A program made the position numbers and the translations under genes. The notes under the pieces were generated by a model, which saw only the letters and a list, made by a program, of their open reading frames with translations, was not told where the DNA came from and did not search any database. From contig OZ252299.1 of NCBI GenBank assembly GCA_965250285.1, positions 1,888,001-1,952,000 on the forward strand: DNA of 64,000 nt, given 5' to 3'. Origin of the DNA: Myxococcota bacterium. GTDB lineage: Bacteria > Myxococcota_A > UBA9160 > UBA4427. Positions 52,742 to 63,462 of this stretch are shown here, one piece after another (the first letter of the stretch is position 1; every line of letters begins with the position of its first letter).

Positions 52742-53684
52742 GCCGCCGACCCTACCCCATCGTGCACGCATCGCCGGTCGGCGATTGGGCACGTCGCCCC
52801 ATCGCTGACTCGTTCGCTCGAGCGTCCGACACGCGTCGGCGTCCGGCTCGTCACCGGACGTGACCCAGAGTCGAACGACCGGCGATCGATCGCTCGGTGG
52901 TACGCCGTTCGGTGGCACCCGACACGGCATGGTGAGACACGCTCGGGTGAATCGAGGGATCGACTAGGGATTTACCCTGCTCGACTGCGCCGCTTCGAGC
53001 CGGGACGCGCGCAACTCGATCGCGTTCCGAAGTGCTTGGTCGAACATCGTCGCCCTGTGTGTATCGCATTCATGTGTCTGCTGTCCGGGACAGGCAGATC
53101 CACATCGGATGTTCATGCGAGCGCAAACCAAGGGAGAACCCCCACCACGTCGTTCAATTCGACGGAATGGGCGCGTTGCACCTTGATGGCTCGGTGACCC
53201 GTGCATAACATGCGCTCGCGTTCGATCCGGATACGCATCTTTGTGACAGCGCGCAACACGCCTTGCACCGTTCGATCACGGCGAAAGCGCACGAAGCAGA
53301 GAAACGGACGCACGAGACACGGCGACGGTACGCTCGAGCACCCGGGCGCGCCCGACGTCTCGTGCGGGATCGAACCGGGGGTGAGTGGGGTCCAAGATCC
53401 AAAGGACGAGCGTGTTTCGCCTCTCCTGTCTCTGCGCTGCACGTGCGACTCAGCACGGTGACGGGCGACGAGGGACGCGAGACGAGGGACGAACCCGCTT
53501 CGAGCCGTCGAGCGATCGATGCGCCCGTCGTCGATCGTCCGAACGATCGAACGACCCCACATCAGAGCAGTGACTGCACGCAGCAGCGCTGACTCGCCGC
53601 GATCGACCGTTGATCGATCGCAATGAGAACCAGAAGCAGAGAACCTGCGACCAAAGAAGAGAACAGAAGGAGAACAGGCTCGTC

Positions 53685-53924
53685 ATGTCCAAGACGTCCG
53701 TCGATCGAATCAAGCGGAAGCTTCCCGAACGCCTCGCCCAGATCCGGGGTGACCGCTCGCAGCGACAGTTTGCGCGCGACCTCGGCGTGTTCCAGCAGAA
53801 CGTGAACCGCTACGAAAACGGCACCACGCCGCATACCGACTTCTTGATCACGCTGGCGACGAAGGAGCGCGTCTCCCTCGACTGGCTGCTGCTCGGCAAG
53901 GGCCGCATGCGGCGCACCCGCTAG
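53685..53924 (+). CDS. Small XRE-family helix-turn-helix regulator
   Basis: ERLAQIRG..SQRQFARDLGVFQQNVNRYENG..P...L..LA....VSLDWLLLG. AAGGAG upstream. Confidence 0.88.
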   Translation: MSKTSVDRIKRKLPERLAQIRGDRSQRQFARDLGVFQQNVNRYENGTTPHTDFLITLATKERVSLDWLLLGKGRMRRTR

Positions 53925-54056
53925 ATCGAGCCGGGCAGGCGGCGCCGGGGCGTCTCGAACGCCGCGGCGCCCCGCCCTACTGGGCGCCCGGGCGGCTCCC
54001 AAGCCGCGGCGCCCGGCGCTTTCGAGCGCCCGACCGTTCCGGTCGCCGCGTCCCGA

Positions 54057-54164
54057 GCGTTCAACGCGTCTCGCGGGTTCAACGCGTCTCGCGCGTTCGA
54101 GGCGCCTCGAGCGGTCAGAACGTCTCGCGGGTTCCACGCGTCTCGCGCGTTCGAGGCGCCTCCC
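54057..54164. repeat. Six degenerate 18-bp tandem units with a 54-bp higher-order period
   Basis: gcgttcaacgcgtctcgc / gggttcaacgcgtctcgc / gcgttcgaggcgcctcga / gcggtcagaacgtctcgc / gggttccacgcgtctcgc / gcgttcgaggcgcctccc. Confidence 0.85.
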
Positions 54165-54433
54165 GCGCGCTCACTTCGTCTCCAGCGCGCCCGCCACGAC
54201 CGATGCGCCGGACGCCCGCGCTCTCCTTCAGCTCGCAGGCGCTCCGAGTCGATCCCGACCCCACGCACCCGACGGGCGGGCCCCTCGAGGGTCTCGCGGC
54301 CGCATCGCGCCGCAGGAGTGGAACTCCACTACCCACTCCCCATGGGCGCTGCCCCCTCGTTTCACATCACGCGCCGGCAACGCACAACGTAAGCCGCTGC
54401 GCGCAGAGGGCTCCCCTGCGAATGGGCGGTCCG

Positions 54434-54512: not shown

Positions 54513-54848
54513 ATGCTGCGTCTTCTCGTTCTGATCACCCTCGCCCTGACGACCGCAGACCACTGGACCACGTGGCAGTGCCTGCGCGCGCCCGTGCCGG
54601 GCTGGAACGTGACCGAAGCGAACCCGGCCGCCAGCTGGCTGTTCCAGGCGACGGGCCTCGTGCCCGGGTTGCTCATCGACTCGGCCATCACCGTCGCCGC
54701 GGTGGCGTTCCTCGTCACGACGCAAGCGATCCCGCGTCCGGCGAAGCTCGCGTTCCTCGCGTTGATCTCGGTCTGCACGGGCTACGCGGTGGCGAACAAC
54801 GTGCTCGCGATTCGGGACATGGGGCTGCTCACGGTGGGGGTGTCCTGA
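54513..54848 (+). CDS. Small membrane protein, DUF5658-like
   Basis: D..TT...L...EANP motif, 3 TMs and C-terminal NN. Confidence 0.65.
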   Translation: MLRLLVLITLALTTADHWTTWQCLRAPVPGWNVTEANPAASWLFQATGLVPGLLIDSAITVAAVAFLVTTQAIPRPAKLAFLALISVCTGYAVANNVLAIRDMGLLTVGVS

Positions 54849-54852
54849 CGAG

Positions 54853-55548
54853 ATGCGACGCTTTGCCCCGATTCTGATCGTGTTCGGCCTCGCGAGCCTC
54901 TCGTGCAGCGGCTTCGGCTCCTTCTCGAATGCGCCGACCGACGCCGCTGCGGTGCTCGTCATCCCGCCGACCGAGCTCAAGGAAGCGCCCGAGCTCGCCC
55001 ATCCCATTCGCGCCGATCAGGATCAGCTCGCGGTCATCAAGGCCGACGCGCTCGACGGACGCGTGCGGGGTGAGATTCTCGACGAGCTCCACGCGCGACA
55101 TACCGGACTCTCGGATCGCGAGCTCATGCGACTCGCGTACACCATCGTCCAGGAGTCGGAGCGCCATGGGATCGACCCGACGCTCACGCTCGCGGTGATC
55201 AAGGTCGAGAGCGGCGGCTACCACCTCGCCGTGTCGCCCGTCGGTGCGCTCGGCCTGATGCAGCTGCTGCCGAGCACGGCCGAAGAGCTCGCCCGGAAGC
55301 ACGGGCTGCACTGGCGCGGCGCCAACTCGCTCTTCGATCCGATTCTGAACGTCAAGCTCGGCACCGCGTACCTCAGCCAGCTCGAGCGCAAGTACGGCAG
55401 CATGCACACCGCGCTCGCGGCGTACAACTGGGGGCCCGGTCGCATCGATCGGCGACTGCGGCGCGGCGCGTCGGTGCCGCGGCTCTACCGCGAGCAGGTG
55501 ATGAAGTTCTATGAGGCCGGCGGCAAGCCCTCGGCCTCGCGCTCGTGA
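54853..55548 (+). CDS. Soluble lytic transglycosylase (SLT domain), exported or lipoprotein
   Basis: AVIKVESG (catalytic Glu), GALGLMQL.P.TA, N...GT.YL and ALAAYN.GPG. Confidence 0.92.
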   Translation: MRRFAPILIVFGLASLSCSGFGSFSNAPTDAAAVLVIPPTELKEAPELAHPIRADQDQLAVIKADALDGRVRGEILDELHARHTGLSDRELMRLAYTIVQESERHGIDPTLTLAVIKVESGGYHLAVSPVGALGLMQLLPSTAEELARKHGLHWRGANSLFDPILNVKLGTAYLSQLERKYGSMHTALAAYNWGPGRIDRRLRRGASVPRLYREQVMKFYEAGGKPSASRS

Positions 55549-57074
55549 GCCCCGAGCCAGAGACCTCGACCGGCGTCGGCCGCCTGCGGGACCGCGCCTT
55601 CGTCGCCGCCCACCTCAGCCCCGTGACGCACCAGCTCGGCGACGAAGGCGTCGACGCCGTCCATCGCCGCGCGCGCGCCGTTCTTGTAGCCGTTGACGAT
55701 CACCGCGAAGATGGCGAGCTCGCCGTCCGCCAGCTCGGCGTAGCCCGACAGGCTCGTGACGCGCGCATCCGACAGCAGGCCGGTCTTGGCGCGCACCCGG
55801 CCACGCAGTCCGGCCGCGCGCTTCTCGAGCGTGCCGTCCGCCTGCGCCAGCGGCAGCGAGGCGAGCATCTCGGGACCGAAGGCGAACGAGGCACGTGAGG
55901 CGACGAGGGCCCGGTGCAGCGTCCGGGCCGACACGCGGTTGCGCGTCGACAGCCCCGACCCGTCGACGAGCACCGTGCCGGCACCGAGCACACCCATCTC
56001 GTCGAGCGCCGCTTGCATCGCTGCGAGCCCGGTCGCCCAGCTGCCGGCCTCGCCCGTTGCGGCGCGCCCCATCGACTTCACGAGCGACTCCGCGACCGCG
56101 TTGTTGCTGTACTTCATGAAGAGCTGGACGATCTCGCTGAGCGGGCGCCCCTCGAAGACGAGCAGCTCGTGTCGGGCTTCGTCGGCCTTCCCCCGCCGCA
56201 CGACGCCGGTGACCTCGATTCCTACCGCCTCGAGCTGCATCTTGAGAACGGCACCCGCGTAGATGGCCGGGTCGGAGACGCTGCGCGGAAACACGTCGGG
56301 TTGGGCCCCCGCCGCGAGGCGTCCGCGAACCGAGACGCCCTCGCCCTCGGCCGCGCGTCGACGATCGACGACCAGATTTGGTCGCGTCCGGGGTGCTCCG
56401 GTCGTCGCTCGATTCTCCACCCGAAAGAAGTCGATCGGCGGATCGACGTCGACCCGCACCGGAGCGCCGGGCTTCGGTCCGGCCGTGACCCGCACGAAGT
56501 AGGCGCCGTAGTTGGCGGTGAGCGCGGTGATGGGCGCGTGATACGCGCGCGACGAGACGCGGCCCCAGTCGGGATGGGCGCGCACGGCGTCGAACGCCGA
56601 GTCGTTCACGATGAGGTCGCCCTCGACGCGCCGCAGGCCTTCGGTGCGCAGGGCCGAGGCCACGCGCCACCAGTCCTCGCTGTTCGTGACCGGGTCGCCG
56701 CCGCCGACGACGAGCAGCGCGCTGACGCGCCCCTCGGCGTCGGGCGGCTCGGGCGTGAGCAGCCGCGTCTCGAACTGATGCGTCGGCCCGAAGCGGTCGA
56801 GCGCCGCCATCGCCGTCAGGATCTTCATGTTCGAGGCTGGGATCAGCGAAAGATCCGCATCGTGGGCGTACAGGACGGCCCCGTCACGTGCGCGCCCGAC
56901 CAGGATGCTGGTGCGCGCCCCGGCGAGCCCGGCCCTCTGGCGCGCCCGATCGAGCGCTTGCTCGCGCTTCGCGGCGCGCGTGGACGCGAGATCGCTCGCC
57001 TGTACGGGCGTCGGCGGCCCGCCGCAGGCGAAGAGCAGAGAGAGAAGGAGGGCCGTCAACCCGGTCCGCATCAT
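55509..57074 (-). CDS. dacB: D-alanyl-D-alanine carboxypeptidase/endopeptidase (PBP4, peptidase S13), lipoprotein
   Basis: LFAC lipobox, PASNMK (SxxK), GGGDP, KYSNN (SxN), DGSGLS..N and AKTG. Confidence 0.93.
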   Translation of the reverse strand: MMRTGLTALLLSLLFACGGPPTPVQASDLASTRAAKREQALDRARQRAGLAGARTSILVGRARDGAVLYAHDADLSLIPASNMKILTAMAALDRFGPTHQFETRLLTPEPPDAEGRVSALLVVGGGDPVTNSEDWWRVASALRTEGLRRVEGDLIVNDSAFDAVRAHPDWGRVSSRAYHAPITALTANYGAYFVRVTAGPKPGAPVRVDVDPPIDFFRVENRATTGAPRTRPNLVVDRRRAAEGEGVSVRGRLAAGAQPDVFPRSVSDPAIYAGAVLKMQLEAVGIEVTGVVRRGKADEARHELLVFEGRPLSEIVQLFMKYSNNAVAESLVKSMGRAATGEAGSWATGLAAMQAALDEMGVLGAGTVLVDGSGLSTRNRVSARTLHRALVASRASFAFGPEMLASLPLAQADGTLEKRAAGLRGRVRAKTGLLSDARVTSLSGYAELADGELAIFAVIVNGYKNGARAAMDGVDAFVAELVRHGAEVGGDEGAVPQAADAGRGLWLGAHEREAEGLPPAS

Positions 57075-57251
57075 GTCCACCCCGACCCCGTGTCGGCCGC
57101 GCGACGACCGCGTCGGACGCCTCGATGCGAGCGATCGACCGGTCGCGGCGCGCAGGGGCCACCGCCGCGCCGCCCCGTTCGAATCGGTCGCGGCGCCGGA
57201 AATCTTGGGGGGATCGAGCCAGACGCGGGGGCATCTTCCACCGCCGCGTGC

Positions 57252-57280
57252 TTGACGCCGTCGAGCTTATCCCCGAGGCT
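57252..57280 (+). promoter_or_regulatory. Possible sigma70 promoter of the spmAB-amgK-murU operon
   Basis: TTGACG-N17-GAGGCT. Confidence 0.35.
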
Positions 57281-57326
57281 GCACGCCGGCAAACCGGAGC
57301 CCGCTCCGGTGACTCTGGGGGGAGTC

Positions 57327-58685
57327 GTGCTCAGCTGGATCTGGCTCGGGATCGTTCTGGTCTCGGTTCTGTGGGCCGCGCTCTGGAGCGGCGACATGGA
57401 GGCCGTCACCGCTTCGGTGACGGAGGGCGCCCGCTCGGCCGTCACACTCGTGATCGGCCTCGTCGGCATCATGGTGTTCTTCCTCGGGCTGACCCGCGTC
57501 GCCTTCGACGGCGGCCTGCGGGACGCGTTCGCTCGAGCCCTGACCCCGGTGACTCGCCGCCTGTTCCCCGACGTCCCGCCCGATCACCCGGCGATGGGCG
57601 CGATGATCATGAACATGGCGTCCAACATGCTCGGGATGGGCAACGCCGCGACGCCCTTCGGTCTCAAGGCGATGCGTGAGCTGGGCCGGCTGACGCCCCG
57701 GCCGGGCATCGCGAGCAACGCCATCGTGCTCTTCCTCGCAATCAACACGTCGGCGATCACGATCCTCCCGCCCGTGGGCACGATCGCGATCCGCGCCCAG
57801 ACCGGCTCGGCCGACCCGTGGGCCATCTGGGTGCCGACGCTGATCGCCACGACGTGCTCGACCTTGACCGCGGTCACCGCCTACTTCCTGCTGTCGAAGC
57901 TGCCGATGTTCGCGATGGCGGCGCGCCCCGAGATCACGTCGCCCCCCGAGCCCGAGGACATCGACGGCGGCGACGACCCCGCGACGTCGCTGTCCTCGGA
58001 CTCGGGGGGCGACGACCCCGCGACGTCGCTCGAGGCGCCGGAGCGCGCGCCGGTGGGCCCCGGCCGCACCTGGCTGGTGCGCATCACGGCGCTGCTGCTC
58101 GGCGTGGCGATCGTGCTCTTCTTCGTCGATGCCGTGCCCGAGCTCGGCGGCGTCGGCGCCTTCAAGGTCTTCGCGCGCGCCTGGCTGCTGCCGCTGCTCG
58201 TCGTCACGATGCTCCTCGTCGGCGTCGGCGGCGGCGCAGACGTCTACGGCTCGCTGATCTCGGGTGCGAAGGAGGGTCTCGAGGTCTCGGTGCGCATCGT
58301 CCCGTACCTCGTGGCCATGCTGGTCGCCGTTGCGATGCTGCGCGCATCGGGCGCCCTCGGCTCGATCATTGCGACGCTCGACCCGTACACCGCTGCGGTC
58401 GGCGTGCCCGCCGAGGTGCTGCCGATGGCGTTCCTCCGGCCACTCTCCGGCTCGGGCGCGTTTGGTGTGATGAGCGAGATCCTGACGACCCACGGGCCGG
58501 ACACGTTCATCGGGTACCTGACGAGCACGCTCATGGGCTCGACCGAGACGACCTTCTACGTGCTCGCGCTCTACCTGGGTGCCGCCGGCGTCGTCGACGG
58601 TCGACATGCGCTGCTCGCGTGCGTGCTCGGCGACATCGGCGGCTTCATCGGCGCCGTGGCCGCCTGCCACTGGTTCTTCGGGTGA
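57327..58685 (+). CDS. spmAB: Fused SpmA-SpmB (spore maturation / nucleoside-recognition Gate domain) membrane protein
   Basis: SpmA part: LFPDVP..HPA.G, NMLGMGNAATPFGLKAM.EL, FLAINTS. SpmB part: GAKEG, PYLVAML, LRPLSGSGA, GSTETTFYV. GTG start after GGAG. Confidence 0.9.
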   Translation: MLSWIWLGIVLVSVLWAALWSGDMEAVTASVTEGARSAVTLVIGLVGIMVFFLGLTRVAFDGGLRDAFARALTPVTRRLFPDVPPDHPAMGAMIMNMASNMLGMGNAATPFGLKAMRELGRLTPRPGIASNAIVLFLAINTSAITILPPVGTIAIRAQTGSADPWAIWVPTLIATTCSTLTAVTAYFLLSKLPMFAMAARPEITSPPEPEDIDGGDDPATSLSSDSGGDDPATSLEAPERAPVGPGRTWLVRITALLLGVAIVLFFVDAVPELGGVGAFKVFARAWLLPLLVVTMLLVGVGGGADVYGSLISGAKEGLEVSVRIVPYLVAMLVAVAMLRASGALGSIIATLDPYTAAVGVPAEVLPMAFLRPLSGSGAFGVMSEILTTHGPDTFIGYLTSTLMGSTETTFYVLALYLGAAGVVDGRHALLACVLGDIGGFIGAVAACHWFFG

Positions 58686-59791
58686 CGCCCGACACCGACA
58701 CGGCCCCGATCGACGACGCGCGACTGACCGAATGGGTCCACGCCTGCGTCGGCCGCGCCCCGCGCGCGCTCGAGCCGATCGCGCCCGGTCTCGGGCATCG
58801 CACCTTCCATCGTGTCCACTTCGATCCGCCCCTGCCCGTCGGGCCCCGCTCGCTCGTGCTGCGCGTCGATCCGCCCGATGCCCGGATCGCCGTCGGCGGC
58901 GTCGCCCCCGAGCCCGAGCTCGAGCCGATTCGCGCCTGCCTCGAAGCGGCTGGCGTGCCCGTGCCTCGCAGCTTCGGTTCGGACGCGGATCGGGGGCTCG
59001 ACCTGCTCGAGGACGTCGGCGACGAGACCCTCGAGGTCGTCGCCGCGACCGCGCCGCCGGAGATCCGGAAGTCGCTCTACCGTCGAGCCATCGAAGTCGT
59101 CGGGCGACTGCAGACGATCGAAGCACCCGCCGCGAACGACGCCCGCCCGGCGGCGTTCGAGCGGCGCCTCGACCGCGCGCTCATCGCGACGAAGGCGCGC
59201 AAGGTCGTCGATTGGCTCCTGCCCGAAGCGCTCGGGCGCGCCGCTTCGACCGGTGAACGCGAGGTCATCGAAACGAGCTTCGACGCGATCGCCGACCTGG
59301 TCGAGGCCGCGCCGCCGCGGCTGGCGCACCGCGACTACAAGGCGGCCAATCTCCACGTGATGCCGCCGCAGCGGCTCGTGCTGATCGATCTGCAGGGCGC
59401 CTTCATGGCGCCGCCCGAGTACGACCTCGTCTGCCTGCTGCGCGACAATCACGTCGCGCTCGACGACGCCGAGATCGAAGCGCAGCTCGCCTTCGCCCTC
59501 ACCGTATTGCCGGCCGCGCCCGACACCGACACGGCGGGCCTGCGCTTCGACGCCCTGACGATCAGCCGGGTGGGCAAGGATCTCGCGCACTACCTCGACG
59601 CGGCGCGCTCGCGCGGAGACGAACGCTATCTGCGCTTCGTCGCAACGGGGCTCGCGCGGATGCAGACCGCCGCCGAGCGGCTGCGCGCCCGCGACGCACG
59701 CTGGCACGCTCTGGCCGATCTGATCACGCAGCTGACGCTGCCCCCGCGGTGCCGCACGCACGCGAAGGAGGCCCCGACGTGCGCGCCATGA
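58682..59791 (+). CDS. amgK: Aminoglycoside-phosphotransferase-fold sugar kinase, AmgK-like (N-acetylmuramate 1-kinase)
   Basis: R.F.R, G..LLED.GD, HRDY...NL and ID.Q.A...P..YDL..LLRD; directly upstream of a MurU-like gene. Confidence 0.78.
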   Translation: MTPDTDTAPIDDARLTEWVHACVGRAPRALEPIAPGLGHRTFHRVHFDPPLPVGPRSLVLRVDPPDARIAVGGVAPEPELEPIRACLEAAGVPVPRSFGSDADRGLDLLEDVGDETLEVVAATAPPEIRKSLYRRAIEVVGRLQTIEAPAANDARPAAFERRLDRALIATKARKVVDWLLPEALGRAASTGEREVIETSFDAIADLVEAAPPRLAHRDYKAANLHVMPPQRLVLIDLQGAFMAPPEYDLVCLLRDNHVALDDAEIEAQLAFALTVLPAAPDTDTAGLRFDALTISRVGKDLAHYLDAARSRGDERYLRFVATGLARMQTAAERLRARDARWHALADLITQLTLPPRCRTHAKEAPTCAP

Positions 59792-60726
59792 TCCTCGCCG
59801 CCGGGCTCGGCACCCGCCTGCGCCCACTCACCGAGCTGCGACCGAAGCCGGCGCTGCCGGTCGGGGGGCGGCCTGTGATCGCCTACCTGCTCGCGCTGCT
59901 CGCGCACCATGGCGTGCGCGAAGTCGTCGTGAACCGATCCTATCTCGGGGACGTGCTGACGAGCGCCGTCGACGCGTGCACACCCGAAGGCGTACGCGTC
60001 GAGTACAGCGACGAGCACGAGCCCCTCGGCACGGGCGGCGGCATTCGCCGCGCGGCCGAGTTTCTCGCCGAGAGCGACCCGTCGATCGTGCTCGCAGGCG
60101 ACATGCTCTTCGATGCCGACCTGACGGCGTTGGCCGAGGCCCACCGCGCCAGTGGCCGGCGCGCGACGGTGCTGCTCCGCGACGATCCGCGCGCCGACGC
60201 GTTCGGCACGATCGGCCTCGATGCCGCCGGCCGCATGCGCCGCATCGCCAGCCGCTTCGACCTGGGCGGCGAACACTACGCCGGTGTCTTTACAGGTGTC
60301 CGTTTCTTCTCACCGTCCGTGTTCGACGACTGGCCCGACGCCGCCGAGTTCGAGGATCTCACCGACTGGCTGGCGCCCCAGCTGCGCGCCGGCGCCGACG
60401 ACATCGGCGGAATGGTGATCTCGGTCACCGAATCGCAGTGGGAGCCAGTGGGGACGCCCGCCGAATACCTCGCTGCAAACTTGAAGCCTCCGCCCCTTTC
60501 GTTTGCATCGAAGCTGAAGCCCCTCGCGCCGAGCGCAGCGGCGCGGGAGGATCTGGTGATCGGCGCCGAAGCGAAAGTTGTAGAACCCGAGCTGTTGCGC
60601 CGATGTGTCGTATGGGACCACGAAACAGTCCCACCCGGCACTCGAGGCGAAGACGGCGTCTTCGCAGGGGGCCGACTCGTGCCGTGTCGCGACGGCGCGT
60701 CGATCGATGGGAAGGGAGCGACATGA
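59779..60726 (+). CDS. murU: Nucleotidyltransferase, MurU-like (MurNAc-alpha-1-P uridylyltransferase)
   Basis: AMILAAGLGTRLRPLT...PKP, E...LGTGGGI, GD and W..VGTP..Y; paired with the AmgK-like gene. Confidence 0.78.
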   Translation: MRAMILAAGLGTRLRPLTELRPKPALPVGGRPVIAYLLALLAHHGVREVVVNRSYLGDVLTSAVDACTPEGVRVEYSDEHEPLGTGGGIRRAAEFLAESDPSIVLAGDMLFDADLTALAEAHRASGRRATVLLRDDPRADAFGTIGLDAAGRMRRIASRFDLGGEHYAGVFTGVRFFSPSVFDDWPDAAEFEDLTDWLAPQLRAGADDIGGMVISVTESQWEPVGTPAEYLAANLKPPPLSFASKLKPLAPSAAAREDLVIGAEAKVVEPELLRRCVVWDHETVPPGTRGEDGVFAGGRLVPCRDGASIDGKGAT

Positions 60727-61460
60727 ACGAGGTCGTGTTCGTCGGGACGAGCGACGCCTTCGGCGCCGGCGGGCGGCGCCAGTCGGCGGTGCTCGTGCGC
60801 GGTCGCCGCGGCGGCATGCTGCTCGACTGCGGTGCGACCACGAACACCGGGCTCGCCGAGCTCGGCGTCGACCGCGGAGAGATCGACACGATCCTGGTCT
60901 CTCACTTCCACGGCGATCACTTCGGCGGCATCCCGCTCTTCCTGCTCGCAGCGCTGTACACCGACCGGCGAACCGCCCCGCTCGAGATCGCCGGCCCGCC
61001 CGAGGTCGAGGCGCGCGTACGCGCCCTCGCCCACGCGATGGGCCACGACCTCGATCGAAACGACTGGAGCTTCGACATCCGCTTCACCGAGGTGCGACCG
61101 GGCCTGCACTACTCGCTGGGGCCCGCCGAGATCGACGCGTTCGAGATGAACCACCAGCTCGAGGCCCATCCCCAGGGCTATCGCGTATCTCTCGGCGAGC
61201 GCCTGGTCGCGTACTCGGGCGACACCGGATGGTTTCCGCAGCTGCCCGAGCTCTCGGCCGGCGCCGATCTGTTCATCTGCGAGTGCACGCTGCACCACGA
61301 GGTGCTCGACTTCCACATGAACCTGGATCAGATCGTCGAGCACCGCGAAGAGTTCGATTGCGGCGATCTGATCCTCACGCACCTCGGCGCCGAGATGGCC
61401 GAGAAGCGCGGACGCTGCGAGATCGAAACCGCCGACGACGGCGTCGTGAAGAAGCTCTGA
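60723..61460 (+). CDS. MBL-fold metallo-hydrolase (RNase Z/PhnP-like)
   Basis: Start MNEVVFVGTSDAFG, LLDCG, SHFHGDH (HxHxDH), YSGDT, ECT and LTH. ATGA overlap with murU. Confidence 0.88.
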   Translation: MNEVVFVGTSDAFGAGGRRQSAVLVRGRRGGMLLDCGATTNTGLAELGVDRGEIDTILVSHFHGDHFGGIPLFLLAALYTDRRTAPLEIAGPPEVEARVRALAHAMGHDLDRNDWSFDIRFTEVRPGLHYSLGPAEIDAFEMNHQLEAHPQGYRVSLGERLVAYSGDTGWFPQLPELSAGADLFICECTLHHEVLDFHMNLDQIVEHREEFDCGDLILTHLGAEMAEKRGRCEIETADDGVVKKL

Positions 61461-61514
61461 GCCAAGGCGTGATGCGCCGCCTTCGACACGACCCAAGTCC
61501 CGACGCCGCGCCCG

Positions 61515-61610
61515 CGCGTTAGATCTGCCCGTCGGCGCCCGGCACGCGTTGGATCTGCCCGTCGGCGCCCGGCGCGCGTTAGATCTGCCCGTCGGCGCCC
61601 GGCACGCGTT
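61515..61610. repeat. 30-bp tandem repeat (3.2 copies) made from the 3' end of anmK
   Basis: CGCGTTRGATCTGCCCGTCGGCGCCCGGCR at 61515, 61545 and 61575. Confidence 0.93.
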
Positions 61611-62748
61611 CACCCAGCACGGCGGCACGAGAGGCACCCGTACACGCGGGCAGGTGATTCGGCAGGCCGAGCACCGCGTTGCGCCCCATGAGCGAGAACG
61701 CGATGGCTTCGACGGCCTCGTCGGGTACGCCATGATCGCGACAGCGCTCGATCTGGAGGTCGGGGAGCGCCGCCTGCAGCGCGTCGATCAGGGTCGGATT
61801 GAAGGCCCCCCCGCCACAGGCGAGCAGTCGACCGGGCCGCTCGGCGTCGGCGTCGATCGCCGGCAAGAGTTCGTCGACGGCGAGCGCGACACTGCGAGAC
61901 GTCAGCGCGACCAGGGTCGCGATCAAATCATCGAGCGCGCGCCCTTCGGTCACACATCGCTTCGCGAGCACCTCGGCTTCGGCCCGACCATACCGCTCGC
62001 GGCCCGTCGACTTCGGCGGCGGCTTCGTGAAGTAGGGATCGTCGAGCAGCTCTTCGAGCAGCTCGTCGTCGACCCTGCCCCGGCGACCGCGCATCCCGTC
62101 GCGGTCCATTCGCTCGCGACCTTCGGTCGCGTGCACGAGGACCGCATCGATGAGCGCGTTCGCGGGCCCGATGTCGAAGGCGACCACACGCCCCGGATCA
62201 CCGCCCGCCGGGAGCCACGTGATGTTCGACATCCCGCCGAGATTCAGAACCGCCCGGCCCTCGCCGACATCGGCGAAGGCCGCGTGGTGAAAGAACGGTG
62301 CGAGCGGAGCACCCTCGCCCCCGGCCGCCATGTCGCGCGGTCGAAAGTTCGCGACGACCGGCCGACCCGTTCGCTCGGCCAACCTCGAGGGCGAGCCGAT
62401 CTGCAACGTGCCGCCGTGCTCCGGATGGTGCGCGACCGTCTGGCCGTGGCTCGCGATCGCGCGCACCCCAGCGAGCGGCACACCCGCTTCGGCGGCGACC
62501 GCCTCGGCCGCGTCGGCCAGGGCCTCGGCGACGAAGGCATCGACCGCGACGAGCTCGGCCAGGACGTCTTCGCCAGGAAGGGACCGATCGGCCAGGCGGT
62601 GGATCCGCGCCTGAGCGTCCCTCGGGAAGGGACGCTCGATGTACGCCTGCAGCTCGAACGGGCGCGCCGAGGCGTCATCGGGCCAGTCGACGAGGGCGGC
62701 GTCGACGCCGTCCGCAGAGGTGCCCGACATCAGGCCAATGATCTTCAT
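61579..62748 (-). CDS. anmK: Anhydro-N-acetylmuramic acid kinase
   Basis: IGLMSGTSADGVDAA, SHGQT..H, FR.RDMAAGGEGAPL.P, NLGG.SN, FD.GP.N, PPKSTGRE and CGGG..N. Confidence 0.95.
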   Translation of the reverse strand: MKIIGLMSGTSADGVDAALVDWPDDASARPFELQAYIERPFPRDAQARIHRLADRSLPGEDVLAELVAVDAFVAEALADAAEAVAAEAGVPLAGVRAIASHGQTVAHHPEHGGTLQIGSPSRLAERTGRPVVANFRPRDMAAGGEGAPLAPFFHHAAFADVGEGRAVLNLGGMSNITWLPAGGDPGRVVAFDIGPANALIDAVLVHATEGRERMDRDGMRGRRGRVDDELLEELLDDPYFTKPPPKSTGRERYGRAEAEVLAKRCVTEGRALDDLIATLVALTSRSVALAVDELLPAIDADAERPGRLLACGGGAFNPTLIDALQAALPDLQIERCRDHGVPDEAVEAIAFSLMGRNAVLGLPNHLPACTGASRAAVLGERVPGADGQI

Positions 62749-62933: not shown

Positions 62934-63192
62934 ACGCGCGCTCTCGGCTGCGGCCGGGCCGACTCGGAGCGCCCCCGGGTCGTGGACGTTCCCCGTTCGG
63001 GGGCCAGGGTGGATCGGCGCGTCGCACGTCACCGATCCGCCCGCGTCGGCAGCGAGTCCGAAGCCTCCAAACGTCGGTTTGACGACGACTGGAATCAGCC
63101 GATCCCGGCCCCTGCGCGTGCCCGAGCGGTGCCGCGGGCGGGCCGGACGGGCCCCTGCGGCCCGGCCATCCTCACGCGGAGAACGCGAGACC

Positions 63193-63462
63193 ATGAACGA
63201 CTCCACGCGCGCCCAGGGCTGGGCGATCTGCATCGGGGCGGGGCTGCTCGCCCTGCTCTTCATCATCGGCATCCTGAACGGCAGCTACTGGGCGCTCGCG
63301 GTGCCGGTTGCGATCCTGACGCTCTTCGTGCTCGGGCTGGCCGGCTGGGTCGGCTACACGATCGCGACGATCCAGGTCGAGCCCGACCCGGCGCCCGAGG
63401 TGCTCTCGACCGACGCGCCGGCCGCGTCCGAAGCCGGCGGCGAAGCCGGCGAGACGGCCTGA
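63193..63462 (+). CDS. Small 2-TM hypothetical protein
   Basis: ATG after GGAG, two hydrophobic helices around YWALAVPV, and an acidic tail. Confidence 0.75.
   Translation: MNDSTRAQGWAICIGAGLLALLFIIGILNGSYWALAVPVAILTLFVLGLAGWVGYTIATIQVEPDPAPEVLSTDAPAASEAGGEAGETA

What the first reader, a model, noticed from the sequence alone, without database searches (positions are those of the whole stretch)
54513..62748. Self-contained peptidoglycan cut-import-recycle cluster with unconventional members
Seen: slt, dacB (S13), then a translationally coupled four-gene run spmAB-amgK-murU-MBL (GTGA, 13-nt and ATGA overlaps) that converges on anmK. Established: lytic transglycosylases release 1,6-anhydro-muropeptides and PBP4 cleaves cross-links. 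AnmK, MupP, AmgK and MurU form the anabolic recycling shortcut to UDP-MurNAc described in Pseudomonas, which bypasses MurA and lowers fosfomycin sensitivity. The window has no ampG, mupP, nagZ or ampD. Inference: the two unexplained operon members (SpmAB and the MBL hydrolase) fill the transporter and phosphatase gaps, making this a variant recycling system.
Basis: partly seen in the sequence, partly recalled or inferred. Interest (0 to 1): 0.8.

Follow-up and report, generated by a model that had tools for sequence, protein, structure and literature searches.

The report
SpmAB-linked cell-wall salvage gene block
A conserved block of cell-wall-sugar recycling genes in uncultured Myxococcota includes SpmAB, a long-unexplained membrane protein that is predicted to fold like a transporter and likely imports cell-wall fragments, which would give the spore-maturation family its first concrete job.

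Summary
The genes and overlaps are real, but dacB is on the minus strand and the cluster is not self-contained. The genome (95% complete, one contig) has nagZ, murQ, nagA, ldcA and mpl elsewhere; no ampG, AmpD-family amidase or MupP was found. The kinase and nucleotidyltransferase are the genome's best matches to gammaproteobacterial AmgK and MurU, below curated cut-offs. The block is conserved across the order, but so are unrelated neighbours (coaD, rsmD). The sister order has the same block without spmAB.
The phosphatase-gap argument is weak: MurQ occurs in 54 of 61 genomes, and the hydrolase has an RNase Z/YhfI/Apyc1 fold.
The transporter idea gains independent support. SpmAB models as an elevator-type (CNT/IT-like) transporter. 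In 14 of 155 other loci it lies beside stem-peptide-cutting enzymes of five families, once also near anmK; controls gave 0 of 141. It coexists with AmpG-like genes in 10 of 20 genomes, and an Opp-type system and an SDF fusion are rival importers.
Best reading: SpmAB likely imports stem peptides or small muropeptides for LdcA/Mpl, while AmgK-MurU supplies UDP-MurNAc. The host MurA has Asp at the fosfomycin-target cysteine, so an MIC test would not inform. New variant of a known kind; interest 0.58.

The parts
54513..54848 (+). 111-aa membrane protein, DUF5658-like; upstream of slt, role unknown
   Evidence: No Pfam hit; Atlas first hit 0.96, DUF5658 on 36% of members; beside the block in 32 of 51 relative loci
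54853..55548 (+). Slt-domain lytic transglycosylase, predicted lipoprotein
   Evidence: PF01464 E 4e-28; lipobox-like N-terminus and ES catalytic motif read from the sequence (motifs recalled); in 36 of 52 relative loci
55509..57074 (-). dacB / PBP4 (peptidase S13) DD-carboxy/endopeptidase; converges on slt, diverges from spmAB
   Evidence: PF02113 E 5.8e-98; TIGR00666 254 bits over cut-off 107.8; SxxK, SxN and KTG motifs present (motifs recalled); 53 of 56 relative loci
57327..58685 (+). Fused SpmA-SpmB (two Gate domains); predicted elevator-type secondary transporter
   Evidence: PF07670, two stretches; AF2 model pLDDT 90.7; VIA top hits CNT Z 14.3 and 13.7, then ArsB, TRAP SiaQM, YdaH, DASS; found in 59 of 61 order genomes
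58682..59791 (+). AmgK-like anomeric sugar kinase (APH fold)
   Evidence: Only NCBIfam hits are the two AmgK models, far below cut-off (56/550, 52/500); sole hit in the genome for the Xanthomonas kinase beside annotated murU; HRD, DxQ and YDL motifs conserved
59779..60726 (+). MurU-like nucleotidyltransferase with about 80 extra C-terminal residues
   Evidence: Best NCBIfam model MurU 140 bits, cut-off 250; best MurU-model match in the genome; best hit of annotated Xanthomonas MurU; best PDB hit is a UDP-glucose pyrophosphorylase, then MurU
60723..61460 (+). Metallo-beta-lactamase-fold hydrolase of the RNase Z/YhfI/Apyc1 group; substrate unknown
   Evidence: PF12706, PF00753; HxHxDH and other His/Asp residues invariant in 126 sequences; Foldseek top hits 1zkp, YhfI, RNase Z, Apyc1; 49 of 53 relative loci
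61515..61610 (.). 30-bp tandem repeat, 3.2 copies, between the convergent ends of MBL and anmK
   Evidence: TRF score 178; not found elsewhere in the genome
61579..62748 (-). AnmK, anhydro-N-acetylmuramic acid kinase
   Evidence: PF03702 E 7e-97; NF007148 382.7 bits, cut-off 387; 45 of 48 relative loci

Best explanation
The locus is a conserved cell-wall salvage block in which an AmgK-like kinase and a MurU-like transferase likely turn free MurNAc into UDP-MurNAc, AnmK likely sends anhydro-MurNAc to the MurQ-NagA route encoded elsewhere, and SpmAB, predicted to be an elevator-type transporter, likely imports wall fragments, most probably stem peptides or small muropeptides. Slt and PBP4 would cut the wall outside; imported peptide would be trimmed by LdcA and joined by Mpl (both encoded elsewhere) to the UDP-MurNAc from MurU. 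The MBL hydrolase is an old member of the block, but no phosphatase is needed for the model and its substrate stays open. Shown: genes, orientation, overlaps, conservation, presence or non-detection of pathway genes, neighbour counts. Predicted: the folds. Inferred: every substrate and all flux. Rough odds by step: AmgK/MurU act on MurNAc 0.8; SpmAB moves some peptidoglycan fragment 0.5 (peptide-containing 0.3, sugar only 0.2); MBL is a MurNAc-6P phosphatase 0.2.
For: AmgK/MurU: best-hit relation to the Xanthomonas pair, same gene order, tight coupling in relatives, convergent anmK in 45 of 48 loci. MurQ with both catalytic Glu motifs (motifs recalled), over cut-off, in 54 of 61 order genomes and 3 of 3 sister-order genomes; NagA just over cut-off. 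T. forsythia runs an anabolic AmgK/MurU branch beside a catabolic MurK/MurQ branch (PMC7670621, passages). SpmAB: CNT/IT fold. Outside the block it adjoins stem-peptide-cutting enzymes in 14 of 155 non-redundant loci: AmiA-like (L189, L371, L372, L401, L404, L435), Amidase_3 (L414, L422, L434), Amidase_2 (L167), LdcA (L188, L194, L199), S11 DacB (L378). Controls gave 0 of 141 loci fetched for other genes. These fall in about six separate places on a tree of the SpmA half. One gammaproteobacterial locus has M23-anmK, AmiA-like amidase and spmA-spmB together (L447). One clostridial locus reads lysA, Ala-Glu-epimerase-like, spmA, spmB, ldcA, M20 peptidase (L199). In this genome NagZ, LdcA and Mpl show no signal peptide (read by eye), so fragments must enter, and six AmpG-like proteins from relatives give no tblastn hit.
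Against: 140 of the 155 other spmAB loci show no wall-peptide hydrolase neighbour with these queries (one more, L112, has an S13 gene 3.8 kb away), and none of the 90 loci scanned outside the block has amgK or anmK nearby; the nucleotidyltransferases beside spmAB in three distant loci are GalU/RmlA. The 14-versus-0 contrast is biased: the queries came from the spmAB loci, windows differ (1.5-9 kb) and controls are not independent. Non-wall neighbours are as conserved as the block (coaD 48 of 50, rsmD 49 of 51). The sister order lacks spmAB in the block (3 of 3), and two loci that nest inside the order on the tree have spmAB elsewhere (L143, L144). AmpG-like genes coexist in 10 of 20 genomes (3 over cut-off). 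Rival importers exist here: one Opp/Dpp-type operon and an SDF-binding-protein fusion just upstream of ldcA. NagZ was found in only 24 of 61 genomes and NamZ in 3 of 61, so the source of free MurNAc and anhydro-MurNAc in most of the order is unexplained. AmgK and MurU fail the curated cut-offs. The fold Z of 14 is near the range typical for helical proteins (note).
Confidence: 0.42

Rival explanations
1. One reading: SpmAB replaces AmpG and the MBL replaces MupP, completing a Pseudomonas-type AnmK-phosphatase-AmgK-MurU shortcut.
For: No MupP-model match over cut-off in 61 genomes, and 27 have no match at E 1e-10. MBL coupled to murU across the class, including the sister order, and AnmK is nearly confined to this class (3 of 98 other genomes in the phylum sample). 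G012, G042 and G057 keep anmK and MBL but MurQ was not found. In G154 the MBL moved with anmK. Phosphatases come from many families (PMC5371407, passage).
Against: MurQ in 54 of 61 removes the need. Fold neighbours are phosphodiesterase-type. G045 keeps the MBL with no AnmK found; G044 keeps anmK, amgK and murU with no MBL. The MupP cut-off is strict (0 of 14 controls pass), and generic HAD phosphatases exist in the genome. 0 of 80 distant MBL loci lie near recycling genes.
Confidence: 0.15
2. SpmAB imports the free sugars (MurNAc or anhMurNAc, or the disaccharide) that feed AmgK and AnmK, like MurT of Tannerella.
For: Coupled directly to amgK; closest fold is the nucleoside transporter CNT, and TRAP SiaQM carries a sugar acid; NagZ was not found in most of the order while the kinases are kept; independent anmK-amidase-spmAB locus (L447); AmiA also releases the disaccharide (PMC4600125, passage).
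Against: S11 DacB, LdcA, LysA and the epimerase neighbours act on peptides, not sugars (enzyme chemistry recalled); a weak relative, E. coli YjiH/YjiG (E 0.32; NF007811 E 2e-4), sits with isoaspartyl dipeptidase; sister order has the kinases without spmAB beside them.
Confidence: 0.18
3. SpmAB and the MBL are housekeeping passengers in a slowly rearranging chromosome segment; only AnmK and AmgK-MurU are recycling genes, and import runs through Opp, the SDF fusion or AmpG.
For: coaD, rsmD and an HTH gene are as conserved beside the block; about nine in ten spmAB loci elsewhere have unrelated neighbours; distant MBL relatives sit in an equally stable but unrelated block (DNA ligase, DUF6460, MATE, pyrD); spmAB joined the block once.
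Against: Five hydrolase families in several lineages next to spmAB against 0 of 141 controls; tight junction to amgK kept in 41 of 52 loci.
Confidence: 0.2
4. The kinase/transferase pair makes a different nucleotide sugar (for example for the GT4 glycosyltransferases beyond anmK) and is not a MurNAc pathway.
For: The transferase has a C-terminal extension that the 218-243-aa reference MurUs lack, its best PDB hit is a UDP-glucose pyrophosphorylase, homologs score as well on the Man-1P guanylyltransferase model; two GT4 genes follow anmK here and in the sister order.
Against: Best-hit relation to the Xanthomonas pair, same gene order, anmK, slt and dacB on both sides.
Confidence: 0.05

Closest known systems
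Pseudomonas-type anabolic MurNAc recycling (AnmK, MupP, AmgK, MurU)
   Same: AnmK, AmgK-like and MurU-like genes; amgK-murU order and overlap
   Different: No MupP found; MurQ is present, whereas Pseudomonas lacks it (PMC5371407 abstract); no AmpG or AmpD-family gene in this genome; transferase has a C-terminal extension; MurA has Asp at the fosfomycin-target position
Tannerella forsythia MurT with parallel AmgK/MurU and MurK/MurQ branches
   Same: Anabolic and catabolic branches side by side with a non-PTS importer (PMC7670621 passages)
   Different: AnmK rather than MurK; MurA present; the candidate importer is a Gate-domain protein; MurT itself was not searched
Bacillus dacB-spmA-spmB (spore maturation proteins)
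   Same: Same protein family (about 41% identity to Bacillus and Brevibacillus records); a DD-peptidase gene is adjacent
   Different: Fused gene in a Gram-negative lineage; the peptidase is S13 and divergent, not S11 and co-oriented; mechanism unknown in Bacillus (bioRxiv 10.1101/2022.02.25.481979, passage)
Agrobacterium YejBEF-YepA, an AmpG-independent muropeptide importer
   Same: Recycling enzymes present without AmpG, implying another importer (PMC9790009 passages)
   Different: That is an ABC system; this genome has one Opp/Dpp-type operon, but no YejA hit
Concentrative nucleoside transporters and IT-superfamily elevators (CNT, AbgT/YdaH, DASS, TRAP)
   Same: Predicted fold (VIA Z 14.3, rmsd 4.2, 275 aligned; Foldseek E 0.003 for YdaH)
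   Different: 10-16% identity; no sequence hit in the PDB; substrate and coupling ion unknown
RNase Z / YhfI / Apyc1 MBL-fold phosphodiesterases
   Same: Fold (TM about 0.8) and metal-binding motifs
   Different: 20-24% identity; 245 aa, shorter than RNase Z; below all curated cut-offs; genomic partner is murU

Membership tests
Pseudomonas-type MurNAc shortcut | AnmK present | tested here: met
   PF03702 325 bits over cut-off; NF007148 382.7 of 387
Pseudomonas-type MurNAc shortcut | AmgK orthologue | tested here: inconclusive
   Only AmgK models hit but far below cut-off; sole genome hit of the Xanthomonas kinase, E 3e-11; the Legionella kinase gave no hit at E 1e-3
Pseudomonas-type MurNAc shortcut | MurU orthologue (minimal nucleotidyltransferase next to amgK) | tested here: inconclusive
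   140 of 250 bits; best genome hit of both reference proteins; extra C-terminal region
Pseudomonas-type MurNAc shortcut | HAD-family MurNAc-6P phosphatase MupP | tested here: not met
   Best HAD 82 of 359 bits in an unrelated context; 0 of 61 over cut-off; the cut-off also fails all 14 controls, so a divergent MupP is not excluded
Pseudomonas-type MurNAc shortcut | Absence of MurQ | tested here: not met
   MurQ over cut-off here and in 54 of 61
Pseudomonas-type MurNAc shortcut | Enzyme activity on MurNAc and MurNAc-1P | not testable with these tools
   Needs assays
E. coli-type catabolic route (AnmK, MurQ, NagA) | AnmK, MurQ and NagA in the genome | tested here: met
AmpG-dependent muropeptide recycling | AmpG permease and AmpD amidase | tested here: not met
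   No TIGR00901 match, no tblastn hit of six AmpG-like queries, no Amidase_2; genome 95.4% complete
SpmA/SpmB (Gate-domain) family | Two Gate domains homologous to SpmA and SpmB | tested here: met
   PF07670; homologs named SpmA/SpmB; split orthologs in Bacilli and Clostridia
Elevator-type secondary transporters (CNT/IT) | Shared fold | tested here: met
   All 13 VIA hits with Z 9 or more are CNT or IT-superfamily transporters; predicted model only
Elevator-type secondary transporters (CNT/IT) | Transport activity and substrate | not testable with these tools
   Needs uptake assays
RNase Z / Apyc1 | Score over curated cut-off | tested here: not met
   RNase Z 106 of 252; Apyc1 40 of 50; fold shared

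The most novel reading that the evidence does not exclude
SpmA/SpmB is an unrecognised family of peptidoglycan-fragment importers, recruited repeatedly next to wall amidases and carboxypeptidases across phyla. Here it feeds an AmpG-free recycling route, and in endospore formers it clears the peptides cut from the spore cortex, which would explain its role in core dehydration. In the boldest form the MBL-fold hydrolase is also a non-HAD MurNAc-6P phosphatase.
Probability: 0.33. Interest if true: 0.85.

Novelty: new variant of a known kind. Interest (0 to 1): 0.58.

Why it matters
SpmA and SpmB are conserved in nearly all endospore formers and needed for spore heat resistance, yet their mechanism is stated to be unknown (bioRxiv 10.1101/2022.02.25.481979, passage). 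A transporter fold plus recurring wall-hydrolase neighbours gives a short, testable substrate list. It would also add a further kind of peptidoglycan-recycling importer beside AmpG and the ABC systems, and describe recycling in a widespread uncultured Myxococcota class that keeps both MurQ and AmgK/MurU. If SpmAB is a passenger, the locus is an ordinary recycling cluster in an unstudied lineage.

Tried and rejected
NamZ as the source of free MurNAc: found in 3 of 61 genomes, not in this one. A conserved HAD as hidden MupP: no match over cut-off, best matches scattered; I did not test orthology among them. The upstream phosphoglucomutase as a MurNAc-6P to 1P mutase: present in only 22 of 47 loci, not pursued. 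Nucleotidyltransferases beside distant spmAB as MurU: they are GalU/RmlA. Sequence search of SpmAB in the PDB: no hit; Foldseek gave no match at E 0.001 or better. Sigma-70 promoter scan: 0 sites; terminator-like sites lie inside genes. Expression: no RNA holder listed. Names and taxa for MBL cluster members could not be looked up; the Atlas gave Myxococcota and Binatota clusters. Literature: searches listed no paper tying SpmAB to transport of wall fragments; the library lacks most subscription papers, I judged most hits by title and abstract start only, and no supplements were read. A Legionella AmgK preprint had none of the six terms searched. Earlier-findings look-ups were empty. No complex prediction was run, as no binding is claimed. 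One gammaproteobacterial genome (G366) was not scored.


Full report
Observation. The window is G000:C1:1888001-1952000 of a 6.25-Mb, single-contig genome, 95.4% complete. Record titles of close homologs point to uncultured Myxococcota; the class name UBA9160 is recalled. dacB, however, is on the minus strand: it overlaps the end of slt and diverges from spmAB. The layout is a 111-aa gene and slt rightward, dacB leftward, spmAB-kinase-transferase-MBL rightward, anmK leftward.

Identity of the enzymes. AnmK and PBP4 are clear. The kinase hits only the two AmgK models, far under cut-off, and the transferase hits MurU best, at 140 of 250 bits. Eighteen class and phylum homologs also fail the cut-offs. 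The Xanthomonas kinase beside annotated murU finds only this kinase in the genome, and both reference transferases find this one first; the Legionella kinase gave no hit. The transferase has about 80 extra C-terminal residues. I take the pair as AmgK/MurU-like on best-hit relation and context, not on activity.

Rest of the genome. Not found: AmpG (model; six AmpG-like proteins of relatives by tblastn), Amidase_2, MupP (best HAD 82 of 359 bits), NamZ. Found: NagZ and MurQ over cut-off, an Mpl-like gene just under it in a run with ldcA and a serine hydrolase, NagA, two Amidase_3-like genes, one Opp/Dpp operon and MurA. NagZ, LdcA, the hydrolase and Mpl show no signal peptide by eye. MurA reads PGGD where one aligned reference reads PGGC, so the host enzyme is likely fosfomycin-insensitive (effect recalled). 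The cluster is therefore not self-contained, and AnmK's product has a catabolic outlet.

Conservation. SpmAB was found in 59 of 61 genomes of the order. In 62 fetched loci, counting only those with enough flank: amgK 53 of 55, murU 54 of 55, MBL 49 of 53, anmK 45 of 48, dacB 53 of 56, slt 36 of 52; but also coaD 48 of 50 and rsmD 49 of 51 (two genomes contribute two loci each because spmAB is split in the assembly). So the order-wide linkage is mostly inherited gene order. In 3 of 3 sister-order genomes the block slt, dacB, amgK, murU, MBL, anmK is intact without spmAB, and none of 13 amgK-like loci fetched from other classes has spmAB, MBL or anmK beside it. The simplest reading is that spmAB entered an older block once; this is not proven by a rooted tree.

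The MBL. Its model (pLDDT 97.4) matches B. anthracis BA1088, YhfI, RNase Z and Apyc1, a group known for phosphodiester hydrolysis (recalled). MurQ is in 54 of 61 order genomes and 3 of 3 sister genomes, so no gap forces a phosphatase. In favour of a link: class-wide coupling to murU, AnmK nearly confined to this class (22 of 23 class genomes, 3 of 98 others), no MupP over cut-off in 61 genomes (a strict cut-off that all 14 controls fail), and three genomes of 93% completeness or more with anmK and MBL but no MurQ found. Against: one genome keeps the MBL without AnmK and one keeps AnmK without the MBL; 0 of 80 metagenome loci (33-43% identity, mostly one lineage) and 0 of 11 other Myxococcota MBL loci lie by recycling genes. 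I put the MupP-substitute idea at about 0.2.

SpmAB. The model from 103 sequences (pLDDT 90.7) has no Foldseek match at E 0.001, but its top rows and all 13 VIA hits with Z 9 or more are CNT and IT-superfamily elevator transporters. It is not a simple AmpG replacement: all 20 order genomes in the phylum sample have it and 10 also have AmpG-like genes, 3 over cut-off. Outside the block I examined 155 non-redundant loci. Most neighbours are unrelated. Fourteen have a stem-peptide hydrolase as first or second neighbour: six AmiA-like, three Amidase_3, one Amidase_2, three LdcA, one S11 DacB; one more has an S13 gene 3.8 kb away. The same queries hit 0 of 141 loci fetched for other genes; this control is favourable to my reading because the queries came from the spmAB loci. 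On a FastTree of the SpmA half (159 of 161 loci) these cases fall in about six separate places. One locus joins anmK, an AmiA-like amidase and spmAB (L447); another reads lysA, epimerase-like, spmA, spmB, ldcA, M20 (L199). AmiA splits GlcNAc-anhMurNAc-peptide into disaccharide and stem peptide (PMC4600125, passage). What all these neighbours share is the peptide, which is why I rank peptide or muropeptide import above sugar import. The coupling to amgK and the patchy NagZ (24 of 61) keep sugar import alive.

Mechanism proposed. Slt, PBP4 and amidases cut the wall (inferred from family). SpmAB takes up stem peptide or small muropeptide (inferred). LdcA trims it, AmgK and MurU make UDP-MurNAc from free MurNAc, and Mpl joins them (inferred). 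AnmK, MurQ and NagA burn or recycle anhydro-MurNAc (inferred). This resembles the two-branch scheme of T. forsythia (PMC7670621, passages) more than the MurQ-less Pseudomonas route (PMC5371407, abstract and passages). Rival importers in this genome, the Opp operon and an SDF fusion upstream of ldcA, were not excluded. Where free MurNAc comes from in genomes without NagZ or NamZ is unexplained.

Literature. Passages read: PMC13311989, PMC13046382, PMC5371407, PMC7670621, PMC4600125, bioRxiv 10.1101/2022.02.25.481979 (117), PMC3533761, PMC9790009; abstract and outline only: PMC13691567; term search with no passages: bioRxiv 10.1101/2025.03.21.644609 (120). Two of these state that the activity of SpmA/SpmB is unknown. 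Nine searches listed no paper linking SpmAB to wall-fragment transport; the library is incomplete and no supplements were read. One earlier scan note (e1-941133) judged another Gate-family pair an operon passenger; it is an unchecked AI note and served only as a caution.

Verdict. Real, conserved recycling block; a new variant of a known kind. The value lies in a testable function for SpmAB. Interest 0.58.

Noticed in passing
G000:C1:3365130-3371170 (L217:7128-13170): Operon-like run: SDF transporter fused to a family-3 binding protein, ldcA, a beta-lactamase-fold serine hydrolase without signal peptide, mpl. The hydrolase could stand in for AmpD (likeness to B. subtilis AmiE is recalled); the SDF fusion is a rival importer.
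   Followed up: partly
L477-L479 (G045, G042, G057): NamZ was found in only 3 of 61 genomes, all among the 7 where MurQ was not found; in G045 AnmK was not found either, yet it keeps spmAB-amgK-murU-MBL.
   Followed up: partly
G000:C1:3140090-3141358 (L366): The only MurA has Asp at the position of Cys115 (PGGD), a change recalled to give fosfomycin insensitivity.
   Followed up: partly
L447:1520-6612 (G304): Small-genome gammaproteobacterium with M23 peptidase and anmK converging on an AmiA-like amidase, then a 192-aa gene with no Pfam hit (thioredoxin-like by eye) and spmA-spmB.
   Followed up: partly
L199:4440-10368; L188; L194: Clostridial run lysA, (Ala-Glu-epimerase-like in L199), spmA, spmB, ldcA, M20 peptidase: looks like a stem-peptide catabolism operon.
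   Followed up: partly
L180, L181, L184, L200, L203, L413-L416, L422, L429, L445: In Ignavibacteria-type loci SpmAB has about 100 extra N-terminal residues with no Pfam hit, and in most is followed by a 2-hydroxyacid dehydrogenase and/or alanine dehydrogenase.
   Followed up: no
G000:C1:2663700-2669730 (L449): One Opp/Dpp-type ABC operon with a family-5 binding protein; its distribution in relatives was not tested.
   Followed up: partly
window 54047-54167 and 61515-61610: An 18-bp repeat (6.7 copies) upstream of the 111-aa gene and a 30-bp repeat (3.2 copies) at the MBL/anmK convergence; both single-site in the genome.
   Followed up: partly
window 53610-53867 (-): Small HTH-like gene kept beside the block in 46 of 51 loci and in the sister order; possible regulator. 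No Pfam hit; the label is my reading of the sequence.
   Followed up: no
window 63133-63462 and L451:1474-4810: Conserved 109-aa membrane protein, then two GT4 glycosyltransferases and a methyltransferase, diverging from anmK here and in the sister order.
   Followed up: no
L143, L144: SpmAB that nests within the order's clade but sits between an RND/HlyD efflux pair and a glyoxalase: the gene has left the block at least once.
   Followed up: partly
L265-L335: Distant MBL relatives lie in a stable unrelated block: ATP-dependent DNA ligase, DUF6460, MATE, and convergent pyrD.
   Followed up: no
order-wide: NagZ was not found in 37 of 61 genomes that mostly keep AnmK and MurQ, so an unidentified glycosidase or environmental uptake must supply the monosaccharides.
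   Followed up: no
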